Shown here piece by piece: positions 5,411 through 57,971 of a stretch of 64,000 nt of DNA. Origin of the DNA: an uncultured Candidatus Saccharibacteria bacterium (GTDB lineage Bacteria > Patescibacteriota > Minisyncoccia > Phycocordibacterales > UBA6899). Position numbers and translations under genes: made by a program. The notes beneath the pieces were generated by a model, which saw nothing but the letters and a program-made list of their open reading frames with translations, had not been told where the DNA came from and made no database searches. The stretch lies in contig CAZERF010000004.1 of NCBI GenBank assembly GCA_964515375.1, positions 22,012 through 86,011 of the forward strand. Direction: 5' to 3'. Position 1 is the stretch's first letter; every line of letters starts with the position of its first letter.

Positions 5411-6530
5411 TATGAAGATTGTGATCGCGACTCCACTTTATCCACCCGATGTGGGCGGTCCTGCAACATACGCGAAGGCGCTCGAGGACGCGCTTCCCTC
5501 TCATGGAGTTGAAGTCGTTCTTGTCTCCTTTCATGCGGTACGACATCTGCCGAAGGGTATTGCGCATCTCGTGTATGCTTTCAAATTATTTCGCGCGTCA
5601 CGCGGGTGCGACGCGATTCTCGCGCTTGACCCTGCGTCGGTCGGACTTCCCGCGGCGATCATCGCACGTCTCACTCGGACCCCTTTTGTTGTGAAGATCG
5701 TCGGTGATTATGCATGGGAGCAGGGGAGACAACGTTTCGGTGTCGCGCAAGGTCTTGATGAATTTGTCGCGACGGACGCGACACACTTTGCTCGTCCTGT
5801 CCGGATCCTTCGCACGGTGCAAACCTTCGTCGCAAGAAGCGCGCGCCAGATCATTGTTCCGAGCGAATACCTGAAGCGCATTGTTTTGGCGTGGGGGATA
5901 TCGAGCGGAGTGATCACTGTCGTCTACAACACCTATAATGGTGTCGGCCCATTGCCGTCTCGCGACATGCTCCGCGAAGCGCTGGGACTCTCGGGGACGA
6001 TCATCCTCTCGGCGGGACGATTGGTCCCGTGGAAAGGTTTTGGCACGCTCATCGGACTCATGAGGGAGGTGCGACAAACGATTCCCGACGCGCAACTGAT
6101 CATCGCCGGTGGTGGTCCGCTCGAAGGGGAACTTCGCGCGCAGGTTGTGAAAGAGGGCGCAGAGGAGTTTGTGACGCTTCTTGGCAATATTCCACATGAT
6201 GATCTGTTGCGCTATGTTGGTGCCGCAGATCTCTTTGTGCTGAATACGGGGTACGAAGGCCTCTCACACCAGCTGCTCGAAGTCTTGGCGATCGGGACTC
6301 CGATCGTGACCACGAACGTGGGAGGAAATCCGGAGCTGATCGAGGATGGCGTGACGGGACTCCTTGTGCCCTATGATGACAACAACCGCTTGTATACCGC
6401 GATCACGACGCTTCTTCTCGACAAGGAGCTGGGTCACCGGTGCACAGAAAACGGAAAACAATTCGTTGCGCAGTTCTCAAAAGAACGTATGATAAGTGGA
6501 ACATTATCGACTCTACGACACCTTTCATGA
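5411..6530 (+). CDS. glycosyltransferase family 4 (GT-B)
   Basis: Start MKIVIATPLYPPDVGGPATYAK. C-terminal EX7E-type region 'EGLSHQLLEVLAIGTPIVTTNVGGNPELIEDGVTGLLVP'. Confidence 0.8.
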
Positions 6531-54405: not shown

Positions 54406-54446
54406 AACAACGCCCGTTATGATAACGGGCGTTTTTCTTGTGAGAA

Positions 54447-54728
54447 CTAAAAGTGGACGAAGTTTCCACCTTCTTGTTTCGCGCGATGCACTTCATTCAA
54501 GTACCTCTTGATGAAGCGTAGCGGTGCGCGATGGGCGAGCAATTCCGCTTCTTCGGTGAGGAGTGGCGGTAGATAGGGAAGATCGGCCGCCTCCGCACAT
54601 TCCCGGAGTGTCGATTCAAGTTCTTGAGGAGAATCGATCACCTCCTGTGTTTCAGGGTAGAAACACAAGAGAATGGGGAACATAAAGCGGGGTCGCATAT
54701 AGACAACGAACAATGCAATAGAGCACAT
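54447..54728 (-). CDS. hypothetical protein
   Basis: ORF only. Confidence 0.25.
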   Translation of the reverse strand: MCSIALFVVYMRPRFMFPILLCFYPETQEVIDSPQELESTLRECAEAADLPYLPPLLTEEAELLAHRAPLRFIKRYLNEVHRAKQEGGNFVHF

Positions 54729-54874
54729 GACGCTTCTCCTGGGAACAAAATGGTATTTTTATATTTTAACAAATTTTTTAGTTTTGTCAACTTTTCTCAT
54801 TCTATCCACCTTTGCTTTTTTCTTGTTTTTTGCTACTATGTCTTTCGTGCATGACTCATGCACATGAAAATATT

Positions 54875-54897
54875 CTGGTGTAGTAGAGTGGTGGAGT
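54875..54897 (+). other. degenerate tRNA 5'-half-like fragment
   Basis: 'ctGGTGTAGtagAGTGGTgGAG' compared with the tRNA-Asn 5' half 'ccGGTGTAGctcAGTGGTaGAG'. Confidence 0.3.
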
Positions 54898-55072
54898 GAG
54901 GAGAGGGTAGGGACCCGCTCCGCAAGACCTTTTGACGTCGCAGTGAGTCCGTTCGCGGACGAAGCGAGACACAAAAGGTGTACAGCCTCTGTAAGAGGGT
55001 GCGCGGCAAGCGTACTGCTCGCAGAAAGGTTTCACTCTGTGCTAATGGAGATGCACGAGAATAAATACACAT

Positions 55073-55146
55073 TCCGGTGTAGCTCAGTGGTAGAGCAGTG
55101 CGCTGTTAACGCATTGGTCGCAGGTTCGAATCCTGCCGCCGGAGCC
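55073..55146 (+). tRNA. tRNA-Asn (anticodon GUU)
   Basis: 7-bp acceptor stem (UCCGGUG/CGCCGGA with one G-U), D-loop AGCUCAGUGGUAGAGC, anticodon loop CUGUUAA, T-arm GGUUCGAAUCC, discriminator G; CC is encoded. Confidence 0.85.
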
Positions 55147-55154
55147 GCTAAAGA

Positions 55155-55185
55155 AAACGACCTCGTAAGAGGTCGTTTTCTTTAT
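55155..55185 (+). terminator. rho-independent terminator after tRNA
   Basis: 'aaaacgacctcgtaagaggtcgttttcttt'. Confidence 0.75.
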
Positions 55186-55304
55186 TGCGGCTCCGTGCGG
55201 AGCAATGTGCCTGCGCACATTGCGTCAGGATTCGAAGACCCCGCCGATGTTTTGCTTTGCAAAACCGCCGGGGTGTACCGTCCATGTAATGGAAGAATCC
55301 TGCC

Positions 55305-55361
55305 GCCCCGAGAGCCACAAGAAAACGACCTCGCAAGAGATGGTTTTCTTTGTTTGTATGG
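55305..55361 (+). repeat. degenerate duplicate of tRNA-Asn 3' end plus terminator
   Basis: 'gaatcctgccgcc..aagaaaacgacctcg.aagag...gttttcttt' compared with 55128-55185. Confidence 0.6.
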
Positions 55362-55477
55362 CTCCAAGGTGTGTTAAGGTATTATTGAAGTTGTTCGGTT
55401 GAGAACTTGAATTCGCTCTCTATCTAATTGAGATTATGCTAGATTTCTCAACATCGATTTTACAATTTCGACCTTTA

Positions 55478-56173
55478 TCACTTTTCATTCTCCAAAGCCA
55501 AACGAAGCAAAAAAATCGTATCTTTTTTTAGTTTCGCCCGCGCCCAATCTTTTTGCGAATCGGTAAGCATTTCGCCGAGGCCGTCAAGCATTTTTTTATC
55601 GCTCATTTTTTCAAGCAACTCGATACATTTTTCAAGCGTTTGAGCGAAGGGCATACCGGATCTCATTTCAACAATTTTCCTATTTATCTCCCAAGTATGT
55701 TTTGCAAAAAAATACACATCATACACGTCGCGACTGGTTTTGCCGATGCGCTCGTATAATGTCATCAGTTTATTGGCGTACATATCTTCTTTTGCCATCA
55801 CAAGCATTGAAATTCCAAGAATAGTTTTCAATTCATATTTTGAACCGAAATTTCGGTGGTTTACTTCAATTTTGATATTTTGCGATTTTTCGTTGTAAGA
55901 AAGAACGGTCACCTGTCCAAATCGTTTTATTTTTATATCAACTATTTTTCCGTATCTCTCGGCGATTTTTTGAATTTTAGCAAAAACTTCCTTCTCTTTG
56001 TTTTCATCTAAAAGATCAAGATCAATATCCACGGAATTTCTATCAAGTCCGTAAAAAAGTAAAGCCGCTGTACCGCCTTTAAAACCCAAAAACGGCGCAA
56101 TTGAAGTATCCGAAAAAACATCTTTCAAAATCTGCAACAGTATTGTTTTGTGTTTAGGATAATCCAATGTCAT
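55478..56173 (-). CDS. nucleotidyltransferase AbiEii/AbiGii toxin family protein
   Basis: 'GFKGGTAALLFYGLDRNSVDIDLDL' matches the AbiEii N-terminal GGTAL...R.S.DID motif. Overlaps the upstream partner by ATGA. Confidence 0.8.
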   Translation of the reverse strand: MTLDYPKHKTILLQILKDVFSDTSIAPFLGFKGGTAALLFYGLDRNSVDIDLDLLDENKEKEVFAKIQKIAERYGKIVDIKIKRFGQVTVLSYNEKSQNIKIEVNHRNFGSKYELKTILGISMLVMAKEDMYANKLMTLYERIGKTSRDVYDVYFFAKHTWEINRKIVEMRSGMPFAQTLEKCIELLEKMSDKKMLDGLGEMLTDSQKDWARAKLKKDTIFLLRLALENEK

Positions 56174-56811
56174 ATAGTTTTATCTGACTTATTCGCCTCA
56201 TAATATTTAAAATACTCTTTTACTTTTTTCTCCATTCTTTTGTTTCTGTAAATCGGCAAAATTTCAAAAACCTTTTCCCAATCCAAAATATCCAAATAGT
56301 CAAAATGATAATCTTTGCTGACATATATTCTGTCCAAAAAAGCCCGTTCTTTTGTCGCGATTGAAACGTCGTTTGTCTGTTCAATTCCTACCGTATTGCT
56401 CAACACAAAATCTTTCATTCTCACAAAAGAAATTTTCTGTCCATCGGCTACAATTTCTCGGGTTACATACGAAGCGACGAAAATATTTCCATAATATTGA
56501 AAATTCACCCCTGCGCGAGTTAAGACGGTTTCAAAACTAACATATGATGGCGTATAAATCCGTGTCGCCAACTCAAAACGATTGTAATTTTTGTCTTTGG
56601 CGTATATTCCCCGATGTACCCGAATCAATTTTCCGTTTTTTACATAACTGCTCAATCTGACTTGTATTGCGTTTTCCGCTTCTTGCCCCCAGAGCAAGGC
56701 AATATCTTTTACAGAAAAGACTGTTTTAGGAGATCTCAATACAACCTCCACATATTCACCTTTTTTTAACTTTGTTTCCATAATTATATTGGTTGTGAGG
56801 ATAAAGCTCAT
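56170..56811 (-). CDS. AbiEi antitoxin-like transcriptional regulator (type IV TA partner)
   Basis: 'LIRVHRGIYA' is the AbiEi_4 hallmark; the C-terminal domain is typical. Confidence 0.75.
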   Translation of the reverse strand: MSFILTTNIIMETKLKKGEYVEVVLRSPKTVFSVKDIALLWGQEAENAIQVRLSSYVKNGKLIRVHRGIYAKDKNYNRFELATRIYTPSYVSFETVLTRAGVNFQYYGNIFVASYVTREIVADGQKISFVRMKDFVLSNTVGIEQTNDVSIATKERAFLDRIYVSKDYHFDYLDILDWEKVFEILPIYRNKRMEKKVKEYFKYYEANKSDKTI

Positions 56812-56993
56812 AACCAGTATAATTATATACTATTTTAGAATTTACGCAAGATGCGCTGTGAATATCCTCTTCCCCTCAGATTGCTAACCGCACGTCATCC
56901 CAAGCTCGGATTCGATGCTGTTCTCCCGTATTTGTGAACAATTCCCATCGTGAACAAATCGGAAACTGGTACTGCGGCTGTAAGCCGAGAAAC

Positions 56994-57008
56994 TCCTGCC
57001 GCCGGAGC
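56994..57008 (+). repeat. 15-nt exact copy of tRNA-Asn 3' end (att-like right boundary)
   Basis: 'tcctgccgccggagc' is identical to 55131-55145. Confidence 0.55.
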
Positions 57009-57013
57009 ATTGC

Positions 57014-57042
57014 TTGACACAATGCTAAAAGTATGCTAACAT
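57014..57042 (+). promoter_or_regulatory. sigma70-type promoter TTGACA-17-TAACAT
   Basis: Read directly; ~40 bp upstream of the SD/ATG of the 57082 ORF. Confidence 0.5.
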
Positions 57043-57081
57043 TTGAACTGGATCACGAAATAGTCAACCAAGAGGTGAAAA

Positions 57082-57399
57082 ATGCCGGAAAGCACACGGA
57101 ACTATGATTGCCCTGTGTACGGAACGCAGGGCGGAGGACTCGTTCGCTATGTGGACGGTCGCTATGTTTTCGTCGAGAAGCCTGATTGCGAAGGCCTCGA
57201 CGTTGGGGATGAAATGCCCCAAGAGTGGGGTGTCGTTCCTGCCAATGAGGCCGCTCGGTGCGAAGAGGAGAACGCTCGCGACTTAGAGAGAGCTTTTGAT
57301 GAGTTTTTCGACCTCGCGTTCAAGAAGGTCGACGCGGGTGAGCTGTCTCTTGAGCAGGTGGGACGTTTCTTCCCACAGGATATCCGTGACCGCAATTAG
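57082..57399 (+). CDS. hypothetical acidic protein
   Basis: Promoter, SD (agaggtga) and a terminator hairpin at 57423-57456. Confidence 0.45.
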   Translation: MPESTRNYDCPVYGTQGGGLVRYVDGRYVFVEKPDCEGLDVGDEMPQEWGVVPANEAARCEEENARDLERAFDEFFDLAFKKVDAGELSLEQVGRFFPQDIRDRN

Positions 57400-57683
57400 T
57401 TAGTGGTCACTCACCGTCTGTACGAAGCCGTTTGCTTCTGCAGGCGGTTTCTTTTTGTAAAATTAGTTCTGAAGTTGTTTGATTCCCGAACAACTTCAAA
57501 ATCCCTGAAGCATCAATTTTTTTTTTGAACAGCAACCCAGTTCAGAGTTCTGAACTTGTCTAGGATAGGGAGTCAAGTTGAACAGACCGAGGCAAAAACC
57601 TCGGTTTTGTCTTTGTTGTCTTGCAGGTTCTTGTGTGCTAGAACGAGTGAGGCTATTTCTGATCCTCAATAAGGAGGTGTGTC

Positions 57684-57971
57684 ATGGTGATCGTTCTTTT
57701 GTACTTGTTTGGGTTTTCCCTTGGGGTCACGCTGGGGTTATTGATTTCCGAGTTTGTCTCGTGGTCGCTCTTTTTTGCTGGAATCTTCGTGATCGTGCTC
57801 GTGACGGAGGTCATCGGGTCTTGGGGGTTTGGGTCACACTGGAGGAAGTATCGTCGCGATGTGTACATTCTTTATTCTGGACCTTTTGTGCTCATTCTTG
57901 CCGGAGCTCTTTTGAGTGGAGGGAAGATCGGCGCGCTACTGGTGTCGATCGCGACACTGTTGAGTCGTTGA
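57684..57971 (+). CDS. small hypothetical membrane protein (3 TM)
   Basis: Strong SD (taAGGAGGtgtgtcATG). Confidence 0.5.
   Translation: MVIVLLYLFGFSLGVTLGLLISEFVSWSLFFAGIFVIVLVTEVIGSWGFGSHWRKYRRDVYILYSGPFVLILAGALLSGGKIGALLVSIATLLSR

What the first reader, a model, noticed from the sequence alone, without database searches (positions are those of the whole stretch)
55073..57044. tRNA-Asn-anchored miniature islet carrying an AbiEi/AbiEii module, with several decayed copies of the tRNA 3' end
Seen in sequence: the 74-nt tRNA-Asn(GUU) is followed by a terminator. A degenerate ~60-nt copy of the tRNA 3' end plus terminator lies at 55305-55361. A T-arm-like fragment lies at 55226-55246. An exact 15-nt copy of the tRNA 3' end (tcctgccgccggagc) lies at 56994-57008. 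The enclosed ~1.9 kb is much more AT-rich than the flanks. It encodes two overlapping (ATGA) minus-strand genes whose motifs match AbiEi ('IRVHRGIY') and AbiEii ('GGTAALLFYGLDRNSVDIDL'). Established knowledge: site-specific integrases target tRNA 3' ends and leave direct repeats, and AbiEi/AbiEii is a type IV toxin-antitoxin / abortive-infection module. Inference: an integrase-less remnant of an integrative element was captured at tRNA-Asn. The multiple partial tRNA copies suggest repeated insertion and excision at this site. A sigma70 promoter at 57014-57042 sits exactly at the right boundary.
Basis: partly seen in the sequence, partly recalled or inferred. Interest (0 to 1): 0.6.

Follow-up and report, generated by a model that had tools for sequence, protein, structure and literature searches.

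The report
Integrase-less AbiE islet at tRNA-Asn hotspot
A 1.9-kb piece of foreign DNA carrying a toxin-antitoxin/anti-phage gene pair sits just behind a tRNA-Asn gene, bounded by copies of the tRNA's end; it has no recombinase gene of its own, yet it spread recently between diverged bacteria.

Summary
tRNA-Asn(GUU) (55073-55146) is followed by a 1,863-bp insertion (55146-57008) that ends in an exact 15-nt copy of the tRNA 3' end.

Inside the insertion are:
- a decayed second copy of the tRNA end plus terminator (55295-55366);
- an inverted, not direct, copy (55187-55236);
- an intact low-GC abiEi/abiEii operon (PADLOC E 1.8e-57 and 4.6e-75; Pfam AbiEii 6.6e-17).

Syntenic relatives from public assemblies show that the space between tRNA-Asn and a conserved flank (from 57576) is a hypervariable hotspot. 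It holds 2.4 kb here, but 8.6 kb and more than 10 kb of unrelated genes in two relatives whose flanks are closer to the window's.

The same islet occurs in a lineage whose flank is only 79% identical. It is 1,782/1,782 nt identical there, and identity ends exactly at the 15-nt repeat. A gene-less 176-nt relative of the islet's two ends is present in one contig and absent from a 94-97% identical empty site.

So this is a non-autonomous, att-bounded integrative islet (CIME-like) carrying a defence/addiction module. It moved recently; the recombinase is unidentified. It is a known kind in an unusually miniature variant, of moderate interest.

The parts
55073..55146 (+). tRNA-Asn(GUU) gene. Its last 18 nt (55128-55145, GAATCCTGCCGCCGGAGC) are the left attachment-site copy (copy A).
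   Evidence: ARAGORN; Rfam 73.7 bits; repeat families D2/D4
55149..55184 (+). Terminator hairpin A (16-bp perfect stem), supplied by the inserted element rather than the ancestral locus.
   Evidence: I6. The closest relative L041 diverges from the window 6 nt after the tRNA, at 55152.
55187..55236 (-). Inverted copy of the tRNA 3' end (55187-55195 and 55222-55236), split by a 9-bp hairpin with a CTGC loop (55202-55223). This is the left arm of the element.
   Evidence: (I8, I9). The hairpin keeps perfect pairing through 4 compensatory changes in L044.
55295..55366 (+). Copy B: a decayed copy of the tRNA 3' end (13 nt exact) plus a decayed copy of terminator A (55319-55351). On the minus strand the hairpin can serve as terminator of the abiE operon.
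   Evidence: (D1, D4, I15)
55478..56173 (-). abiEii: DUF1814 nucleotidyltransferase toxin, 231 aa. Motifs: KGG32-34, R45, D49xD51, K135LMTLYER142, R148DVYD152.
   Evidence: Pfam PF08843 6.6e-17; PADLOC 4.6e-75; PDB 4o8s 4.4e-8; motifs
56170..56811 (-). abiEi: antitoxin/autorepressor. It overlaps abiEii by ATGA. The likely true start is the ATG at 56781 (203 aa, matching the ~198-205 aa homologues).
   Evidence: PADLOC AbiEi 1.8e-57; NCBIfam 3.9e-9; Pfam AbiEi_4 sub-threshold, but 25/31 family members hit it; partner ORF found in 59 loci
56780..56826 (.). Inverted repeat with 20-nt arms (90% complementary, 7-nt spacer). It overlaps a perfect -10 box (TATAAT, 56827-56822, minus strand) and the abiEi start. 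Candidate AbiEi operator.
   Evidence: (I5). The operator role is inferred from Dy et al. 2014 (PMC3985639).
55465..56910 (-). Core abiE module (operon plus promoter). It is 78-79% nt-identical to modules in unrelated low-GC contigs, with the same sharp ends.
   Evidence: blastn against L045-L049
56908..56993 (+). Right arm of the element. It is non-coding, structured, and 86% identical to the right part of the gene-less 176-nt element in L044.
56994..57008 (+). Copy C: exact 15-nt copy of the tRNA 3' end, marking the right boundary of the islet.
   Evidence: Identity to L001/L036 ends here; the only 3 mismatches are at 56979, 57002 and 57003.
57009..57575 (+). A separate variable cassette: promoter 57014-57042, 105-aa gene 57082-57399, terminator 57424-57451. 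It is absent from all the relatives.
   Evidence: The 105-aa protein belongs to a real family (283 representatives at E<=1e-3).
57553..57607 (+). Ancient right edge of the hotspot: a decayed tRNA-end remnant (...GGGAGTC), followed by conserved flank and the ancestral terminator (57584-57607).
   Evidence: Alignment of junctions in L041, L042, L001, L044 and L131. The remnant is significant in L042 (p<0.002), L001 (p=0.014) and L044 (exact), but not on its own in the window.

Best explanation
Window 55146-57008 (1,863 bp) is a non-autonomous, attachment-site-bounded integrative islet inserted at the extreme 3' end of tRNA-Asn(GUU).

Its conserved backbone has four parts:
- a replacement terminator for the tRNA;
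- a structured left arm containing an inverted tRNA-end copy;
- a structured right arm;
- a terminal 15-18-nt mimic of the tRNA 3' end.

If the element were circularised, right end joined to left end would read 'tRNA-Asn 3' end + terminator', which is the classical design of an attP.

The cargo between the arms (about 55238-56907) is an older low-GC cassette. It consists of a decayed tRNA-end/terminator unit plus a complete abiEi-abiEii operon.

The islet lies in a hotspot (55146-57575) where successive insertions pushed earlier ones, and the original tRNA end plus terminator, rightwards.

Movement is by site-specific recombination at or near GGAGC, catalysed by a recombinase supplied in trans. 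That recombinase is most likely a tyrosine integrase of a co-resident or co-transferred element. This step is inferred, not shown.

Once in place, the operon most likely works as described for AbiE/MenAT. AbiEii is a nucleotidyltransferase toxin that arrests growth. AbiEi neutralises it and represses the promoter through the inverted repeat over the -10 box. The result is abortive phage defence, stabilisation of the islet, or both. This too is inferred from homology.
For: Shown by tool results:
- Anatomy and the non-chance repeats.
- Family assignment of both proteins, with intact catalytic motifs.
- GC of 0.366 against 0.53 in the flanks.
- L041 flanks are 95% identical. L041 carries 8.6 kb of different genes between tRNA-Asn and the same right flank. 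L042 carries more than 10 kb of defence-like genes.
- L001 and L036 come from two independent samples. They carry the islet 100% identical over 55197-56978 and diverge immediately after copy C. Their homologous flank is only 78.7% identical.
- The only 3 differences lie within 30 nt of the junction, two of them inside the att copy. Hybrid att sites would be expected to show this.
- L044 has a 176-nt gene-less insertion bounded by GGAGC. Its right 101 nt are 86% identical to window 56908-57008. Its left part has the same terminator, hairpin and inverted T-loop layout. L131 is the matching empty site, with flanks 94% and 97% identical.
- The arms of the two versions share 56 predicted pairs. Twelve are kept through compensatory changes and none is broken.
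- Phage-like contigs carry a tyrosine integrase next to 38-48 nt identical to this tRNA-Asn 3' half. So this sequence is a used integrase target.

From the literature:
- CIMEs keep attL/attR without integration genes and arise or accrete in tandem (PMC5704250).
- Tandem arrays separated by partial tRNAs are described for Prochlorococcus islands (bioRxiv 10.1101/2020.12.28.424599).
- AbiE mechanism (PMC3985639, PMC7450476).
Against: - No recombinase was identified. None is in the islet. None was detectable in the 64-kb window by tblastn with two tRNA-Asn phage integrases or by a motif screen. Both tests are weak.
- No empty tRNA-Asn site for this particular islet was found.
- The left end of the islet in L001 is unknown because that contig stops at window position 55197.
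- In the L044/L131 pair the shared sequence at the junction is only 5 nt (GGAGC), which is short for a typical tRNA-type att identity block.
- The arm comparison rests on only two distinct sequences.
- Other abiE loci next to tRNA genes (L101, L091, L094, L097, L080, L095) show no flanking repeats. The att-bounded design is therefore not a general property of this abiE subfamily.
- AbiE activity is untested.
Confidence: 0.6

Rival explanations
1. Inert scar. The islet is what deletion left of a larger integrase-bearing element. It no longer moves, and the tRNA-end copies are fossils.
For: There is no integrase. Copy B and the 57553-57575 remnant are decayed. The hotspot in relatives contains broken recombinase genes: L041 has a 239-aa 'Recombinase'-domain-only ORF.
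Against: The islet is 1,782/1,782 nt identical in a host whose flank is 79% identical, with the same right boundary. It is absent from relatives whose flanks are closer to the window's. A gene-less relative has a filled/empty pair. The ORFs and motifs are intact.
Confidence: 0.15
2. Single-strand or hairpin-guided mobility. In this reading the elements are moved as folded single strands. The enzyme would be a HUH/Y1 transposase (an IS200/IS605-type miniature element inserting 3' of GGAGC), or an integron-integrase-like enzyme acting on a folded palindromic site. A classical duplex attP x attB reaction would not be involved.
For: The junction identity in L044/L131 is only the pentanucleotide GGAGC. 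The arms are dominated by hairpins kept through 12 compensatory changes. The tRNA end, terminator and inverted copy form a long imperfect palindrome (z = -11.3). Y1_Tnp genes lie in the same loci of relatives: two in L044 and one in L041.
Against: The right end carries 15-18 nt of exact tRNA sequence, and right end plus left end reconstitutes 'tRNA end + terminator'. An IS200/IS605-type element has no need for that. The left and right hairpins are unlike each other. No Y1 transposase was detectable in the window by tblastn. No other copies of the arms occur in the 64-kb window or in the other loci, so the element is not multi-copy like miniature transposons.
Confidence: 0.15
3. No site-specific step. 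The abiE DNA entered by homologous or illegitimate recombination into a variable intergenic region, and the short tRNA-like repeats are incidental.
For: The core abiE module (55465-56910) occurs with the same sharp ends in contexts without tRNA genes. Most abiE loci show no repeats.
Against: The exact 15-mer is far beyond chance. Identity with L001/L036 ends precisely at it. Junctions in five relatives all carry tRNA-end remnants at the same flank position. Fifteen nucleotides is too short to anchor RecA-type exchange (established knowledge).
Confidence: 0.05

Closest known systems
CIMEs (cis-mobilizable elements) and tandem accretion at tRNA genes, e.g. ICESt1-related elements of Streptococcus thermophilus (reviewed in PMC5704250)
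   Same: It is bounded by attL/attR derived from the 3' end of the target gene. It has no integration or transfer genes. It sits in tandem with other att-bounded segments. Its cargo includes a toxin-antitoxin module.
   Different: It is far smaller: 1.86 kb, with a 176-nt gene-less relative. Its arms are structured and include an inverted copy of the target. No partner ICE or IME was identified. The host is an uncultivated lineage. Mobilisation was not demonstrated.
tRNA-anchored island arrays of Prochlorococcus (tycheposons; bioRxiv 10.1101/2020.12.28.424599)
   Same: The hotspot lies next to a tRNA. Successive integrations are separated by partial tRNA copies, and older elements are pushed inwards and degenerate.
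   Different: Tycheposons carry their own tyrosine recombinase and replication genes. Here no segment carries a recombinase.
AbiE of Streptococcus agalactiae / Lactococcus lactis (type IV TA and abortive infection; Dy et al. 2014, PMC3985639)
   Same: It is a bicistronic abiEi-abiEii operon with overlapping genes. The toxin is a DUF1814 NTase with motifs I-IV. There is an inverted repeat over the promoter. The module is found on mobile DNA.
   Different: The AbiEi subfamily is distant: a profile of 31 members finds no solved structure, and Pfam AbiEi_4 is just below threshold. Motif I-II spacing is 14 residues rather than 15. There is a single 20-nt-arm inverted repeat with a 7-nt spacer. Function is untested.
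MenAT nucleotidyltransferase TA systems of Mycobacterium tuberculosis (PMC7450476, PMC10435456)
   Same: Same DUF1814 toxin superfamily. They give the best-understood mechanism, which is modification of tRNA acceptor ends that blocks translation.
   Different: Different antitoxin types. The substrate of the present toxin is unknown.
Asparagine tDNA integration hotspots of Klebsiella pneumoniae (PMC4891358), and phage attP sites in tRNA-Asn (L037, L038 here)
   Same: The same gene type is used as an integration target, with direct repeats of the tRNA 3' end.
   Different: Those islands and phages are tens of kb long and encode their own integrase.

Membership tests
AbiEii / DUF1814 nucleotidyltransferase toxin | Match to Pfam PF08843 above the gathering score | tested here: met
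   62.7 bits against a cut-off of 22.5, E 6.6e-17. PADLOC AbiEii 250 bits, full length. PDB 4o8s 4.4e-8.
AbiEii / DUF1814 nucleotidyltransferase toxin | NTase motifs I/II (hG[GS]x~15DhD with an Arg in motif II), III (KLxAaxxR) and IV (+DxxD), as defined in PMC3985639 | tested here: met
   KGG32-34, R45, D49-I-D51 (spacing 14), K135LMTLYER142, R148DVYD152. Motif III is a loose match (T and L where the consensus has A and an aromatic).
AbiEii / DUF1814 nucleotidyltransferase toxin | Toxicity and GTP (nucleotide) binding or transfer | not testable with these tools
   Needs expression and biochemical assays.
AbiEi antitoxin | Gene immediately upstream of abiEii, co-directional, translationally coupled | tested here: met
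   ATGA overlap at 56170-56173. A ~190-217-aa partner ORF ends at the abiEii start in 59 related loci.
AbiEi antitoxin | N-terminal winged-helix domain (Pfam AbiEi_4 PF13338) | tested here: inconclusive
   21.8 bits against a cut-off of 25. 25 of 31 family members match at E<=0.01, best 2.3e-6. PADLOC AbiEi 1.8e-57. NCBIfam TAA_AbiEi 36 bits against a cut-off of 150. No PDB relative found by profile.
AbiEi antitoxin | Inverted repeats in the promoter, bound for autorepression | tested here: inconclusive
   A 20-nt-arm inverted repeat at 56780-56826 overlaps the -10 TATAAT and the start codon. Binding was not tested.
tRNA-integrated genomic islet | Intact tRNA gene at one end and a direct repeat of its 3' end at the other | tested here: met
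tRNA-integrated genomic islet | Patchy distribution among relatives, with a boundary coinciding with the repeat | tested here: met
   Absent from L041 and L042. Present and identical in L001/L036, with the break at 57008/9.
tRNA-integrated genomic islet | Own integrase gene | tested here: not met
   The only ORFs are abiEi and abiEii. The islet is therefore non-autonomous.
tRNA-integrated genomic islet | Empty site in a related genome | tested here: inconclusive
   Not found for this islet. Found for the homologous gene-less 176-nt element (L131 empty against L044 filled).
CIME (cis-mobilizable element) | Retains attL and attR but lacks integration and transfer genes | tested here: met
CIME (cis-mobilizable element) | Derived from an ICE/IME by decay and mobilised by accretion with a related ICE/IME | not testable with these tools
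   No autonomous relative was recovered. The metagenome and viral DNA pattern scans found nothing.
IS200/IS605-type miniature element | Insertion 3' of a fixed 4-5-nt target, no target duplication, similar subterminal hairpins at both ends, cognate Y1 transposase | tested here: inconclusive
   A GGAGC target-like pentamer and subterminal hairpins are present. The two hairpins are dissimilar. No Y1 transposase is in the window. The right end carries 15-18 nt of tRNA sequence.

The most novel reading that the evidence does not exclude
The conserved part of this element is not a gene. It is a roughly 180-nt structured DNA module made of a tRNA-Asn end mimic, a replacement terminator, an inverted copy of the target and covarying hairpins.

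Such modules would be miniature, non-autonomous integration vehicles, the site-specific counterpart of miniature transposons. They would exist empty (176 nt) or loaded with defence cargo, and would build a cassette array behind tRNA-Asn. They would possibly be recombined as folded single strands, in the manner of integron attC sites or HUH-transposase substrates, by an enzyme encoded elsewhere.
Probability: 0.2. Interest if true: 0.7.

Novelty: new variant of a known kind. Interest (0 to 1): 0.4.

Why it matters
The case shows in sequence detail how a defence/addiction module travels between diverged, uncultivated bacteria without carrying any mobility gene. A backbone of under 200 nt that mimics the end of a tRNA gene and supplies a spare terminator appears sufficient.

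If such empty and loaded mini-elements are common, many 'orphan' defence genes next to tRNA genes would be mobile units rather than decayed islands. Partial tRNA fragments would then mark cassette boundaries that can be used to mine defence cargo.

On the ordinary side, the abiE operon itself is a standard member of a very abundant subfamily (3,672 homologues at E<=1e-20).

Tried and rejected
- The genome-collection scan with RsgA found only 55% relatives, without synteny or tRNA genes. The source genome appears to be masked.
- The thiolase homologue search found close relatives only on very short contigs.
- The DNA pattern for the right arm found nothing in metagenome contigs or viral contigs.
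- tblastn of AbiEii against plasmids gave no match.
- The AbiEi single sequence and a 31-member profile found no solved structure.
- A search for an integrase or Y1 transposase in the window, by tblastn and by motif screen, found nothing. Both tests are weak.
- Flanking tRNA-end repeats around eight other tRNA-adjacent abiE loci: none found, apart from an inverted tRNA-Ala copy in L053.
- A tandem tRNA gene duplication as the origin of copy B was rejected. Only the last ~18 nt plus the terminator are similar, not the tRNA body.
- The window's own remnant at 57553-57575 is not significant alone (p = 0.39). It is accepted only through its position in the multi-genome junction alignment.
- Structure prediction was not run. 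AbiEi homologues from loci cannot be submitted, and family assignment was already adequate.
Full report
**1. What is in the sequence**

ARAGORN and Rfam find one tRNA in the window, tRNA-Asn(GTT), at 55073-55146 on the + strand. A perfect 16-bp hairpin follows it at 55149-55184.

The last 13-18 nt of the tRNA recur twice downstream in direct orientation.
- Copy B starts at 55295. It has 13 nt exact, then after a 1-nt indel a 36-nt stretch 89% identical to the terminator. Similarity runs to about 55366.
- Copy C is the exact 15-mer TCCTGCCGCCGGAGC at 56994-57008. It is the only other exact copy in 64 kb, and 0 of 100 shuffles gave as many near-matches.

A local-alignment scan with block-shuffled controls puts copy C (score 15) above every shuffle. 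Copy B (score 13, before counting its terminator) is at the top of the null range.

On the other strand, 55222-55236 (14/15) and 55187-55195 (9/9) form an inverted copy of the tRNA 3' end. A 9-bp hairpin with a CTGC loop (55202-55223) interrupts it. With the tRNA end and the terminator this makes a long imperfect palindrome (fold z = -11.3).

GC falls to 0.366 over 55313-56993, against 0.53-0.54 in the flanks. The first 150 nt after the tRNA are not AT-rich.

**2. The two genes**

The ORFs at 55478-56173 and 56170-56811 (minus strand) overlap by ATGA.

The downstream protein is an AbiEii/DUF1814 nucleotidyltransferase.
- Pfam gives 62.7 bits against a cut-off of 22.5.
- PADLOC gives 4.6e-75 over the full length.
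- The solved DUF1814 protein 4o8s matches at 4.4e-8.
- The motifs that Dy et al. showed to be needed for toxicity and GTP binding are present: GG33-34, R45, D49xD51, K135...R142, R148DxxD152 (PMC3985639).

The upstream protein matches a PADLOC AbiEi model at 1.8e-57 and NCBIfam TAA_AbiEi at 3.9e-9. It falls just below the Pfam AbiEi_4 threshold. A same-sized partner ORF ends at the abiEii start in 59 related loci. Of 31 such partners, 25 hit AbiEi_4. A profile of them finds no solved structure, so this is a distant AbiEi subfamily. The homologues' lengths suggest the true start is the ATG at 56781.

A 20-nt-arm inverted repeat (56780-56826) overlaps a perfect -10 box and the start codon. By analogy with the S. 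agalactiae operator it is a candidate autorepression site. That is an inference.

The abiEii subfamily is very abundant in uncultivated bacteria (3,672 homologues at E<=1e-20).

**3. Related genomes: the locus is a hotspot**

The source genome is not retrievable, and representative genomes are too distant. Homologues of the small membrane protein just right of the region (57684-57971) led to syntenic contigs.

- L041 has flanks 95% identical. Its order is thiolase, tRNA-Asn, 8.6 kb of unrelated genes, then the membrane protein and RsgA. It diverges from the window 6 nt after the tRNA and rejoins at window 57576. The unrelated genes include a truncated serine-recombinase ORF, a Y1 transposase, a trypsin-like protein and a collagen-like protein.
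- L042 is 86% identical. It has more than 10 kb of defence-like genes (helicase, methyltransferase, Z1, DUF2779) and rejoins at the same point.

At that point the relatives read ...GGAGC|AGAGTTGGAC(G/A)AACCGAGGCAAAAACCTCGGTTTTG. This is a tRNA-end remnant followed by a terminator. The remnant is recognisable in L042 (p<0.002) and L001 (p=0.014), exact in L044, and decayed beyond recognition in L041 and the window.

So the ancestral arrangement was tRNA-Asn followed by the terminator now at 57584-57607. Everything from 55146 to 57575 is inserted DNA.

The stretch 57009-57575 is a separate cassette. It has its own promoter (57014-57042), a 105-aa gene of a real but uncharacterised family (283 representatives) and a terminator (57424-57451). 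None of the relatives has it.

**4. The islet has moved recently**

Exact-protein look-ups found the abiE pair on Logan contigs from several runs. L001 and L036 come from two different samples. They match the window without a single difference over 55197-56978. They then show three mismatches (56979, 57002, 57003), two of them inside copy C, and diverge completely after 57008.

Their downstream DNA is a different small cassette (a 52-aa ORF), then a tRNA-end remnant, then the conserved flank. That flank is only 78.7% identical to the window.

So a 1.8-kb block is identical in lineages about 20% apart. It is absent from two relatives whose flanks are much closer to the window's (95% and 86%). 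It ends exactly at the att copy. That pattern fits recent horizontal transfer with site-specific insertion, and not an old scar.

**5. A gene-less relative with an empty site**

In L044 the exact 15-mer directly abuts the ancestral flank. The 101 nt before it are 86% identical to window 56908-57008. Further left lie a terminator, a 9-bp CTGC-loop hairpin and CAGGATTCGAAG, the same layout as window 55147-55237.

L131 has the same left flank (94%) and right flank (97%) but lacks this 176-nt segment. The two flanks meet at a single GGAGC.

This is a filled/empty pair for an element with no genes at all. The window islet therefore equals the same two arms plus about 1.67 kb of cargo. The cargo sits between GGATTCGAAG (55228-55237) and GGATTCGATG (56908-56917).

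Joining the right end to the left end gives 'tRNA-Asn 3' end (+CCA in L044) + terminator', as expected of an attP that restores the tRNA on integration.

The arms of the two versions share 56 predicted pairs. Twelve are maintained by double changes and none is broken. Only two distinct sequences are available, so this is suggestive.

**6. The cargo is itself a travelling module**

Window 55465-56910 (operon plus promoter) is 78-79% identical at DNA level to abiE modules on low-GC contigs with unrelated neighbours. The end points are identical in three contexts.

In L047 the module lies between ...CGCGGAGCCA plus a hairpin and ...GCTCGGAGC plus a hairpin. These look like tRNA-Asn-type acceptor ends, but that is a resemblance only.

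Among 85 abiE loci, three have tRNA-Asn within 2.5 kb and four have some tRNA within 600 nt upstream. No flanking repeats were found there. I therefore do not claim that the subfamily as a whole is tRNA-targeted.

**7. Who catalyses it**

The recombinase is unknown. Nothing in the islet, and nothing detectable in the window, looks like a recombinase, though the tests were weak.

Two phage-like contigs place a tyrosine integrase 80-150 nt from a 38-48-nt copy of exactly this tRNA-Asn 3' half. So integrases with this target exist.

I favour a trans-acting tyrosine integrase, or cis-mobilisation after accretion, as described for CIMEs (PMC5704250). I keep open a single-strand or hairpin-guided mechanism. 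The reasons are the 5-nt junction identity, the hairpin-rich arms, and Y1 transposase genes in the relatives' loci.

**8. Comparison and verdict**

The abiE operon is an ordinary member of a known family.

The islet is CIME-like, and the hotspot resembles tRNA-anchored arrays such as those of Prochlorococcus (bioRxiv 10.1101/2020.12.28.424599) or the asn tDNA islands of Klebsiella (PMC4891358).

What is unusual is the scale. The backbone is below 200 nt, exists empty or loaded, and was evidently mobile recently.

Confidence in each claim:
- It is an abiE operon: about 0.95.
- It is a horizontally acquired, att-bounded islet in a tRNA-Asn hotspot: about 0.9.
- It is non-autonomous and recently mobile: about 0.75.
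- It is moved by a trans-acting tyrosine integrase: about 0.5.

Interest is moderate.

Noticed in passing
L041 1054-1265: In the closest relative, the tRNA-Asn gene is split right after the anticodon by a 212-nt insertion. It matches the group I intron model (Rfam RF00028, 44.1 bits, E 5e-10, below the gathering score of 50). The window's tRNA-Asn has no intron.
   Followed up: partly
window 54845-55072: A 228-nt G+C-rich segment lies between a promoter-like region and the tRNA. It is absent from L041 and folds far better than shuffles (z = -5.4, 0/200). It has no Rfam family. It may be a structured leader or small RNA co-transcribed with the tRNA, or another insertion.
   Followed up: partly
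window 57082-57399: The 105-aa ORF of the neighbouring cassette has a conserved ~60-aa N-terminal domain. The domain is found in 283 cluster representatives. Most are small proteins, but it is also repeated 18-20 times in giant proteins of 4,188 and 6,424 aa. There is no Pfam, NCBIfam or PADLOC match.
   Followed up: partly
L053 40-182: A tRNA-Ala gene is followed about 50 nt downstream by a perfect 20-nt inverted copy of its own 3' end. This is the same 'tRNA end - hairpin - inverted tRNA end' design as in the window, in an unrelated contig that also carries an abiE module.
   Followed up: no
L044 1656-1818 and 2144-2725: A 163-nt insertion lies in the upstream region of the membrane-protein gene and is absent from all other relatives. 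An IS200-type Y1 transposase gene lies directly downstream of that gene, and a second Y1 gene is at 5954-6517.
   Followed up: no
L037 3979-4033 and L038 2918-2965: High-GC viral contigs carry 38-48 nt identical to the 3' half of this tRNA-Asn, 80-150 nt from a tyrosine integrase gene. These are classical attP-int modules. An inovirus-like contig (L039) has an 18-nt match next to its replication gene.
   Followed up: partly
L042 591-9792: In this relative the hotspot holds a defence-like gene set: ResIII helicase, N6/N4 DNA methyltransferase, Z1-domain protein, DUF2779 protein, and an FtsK-gamma protein at the edge. Its left end was out of reach.
   Followed up: no
L101 100-170: Another abiE module sits 237 nt downstream of a tRNA-Asn. 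Between them lie a terminator and an 11-nt T-arm fragment (GCAGGTTCGAA). The fragment matches the window's tRNA rather than L101's own tRNA.
   Followed up: no
window 54406-54809 vs L041 609-968: The space between the thiolase gene and the tRNA also differs between the window and its 95% relative. The window has a 93-aa minus-strand ORF there. L041 has a 74-aa zinc-ribbon-like ORF. Both sides of the tRNA are therefore variable.
   Followed up: no
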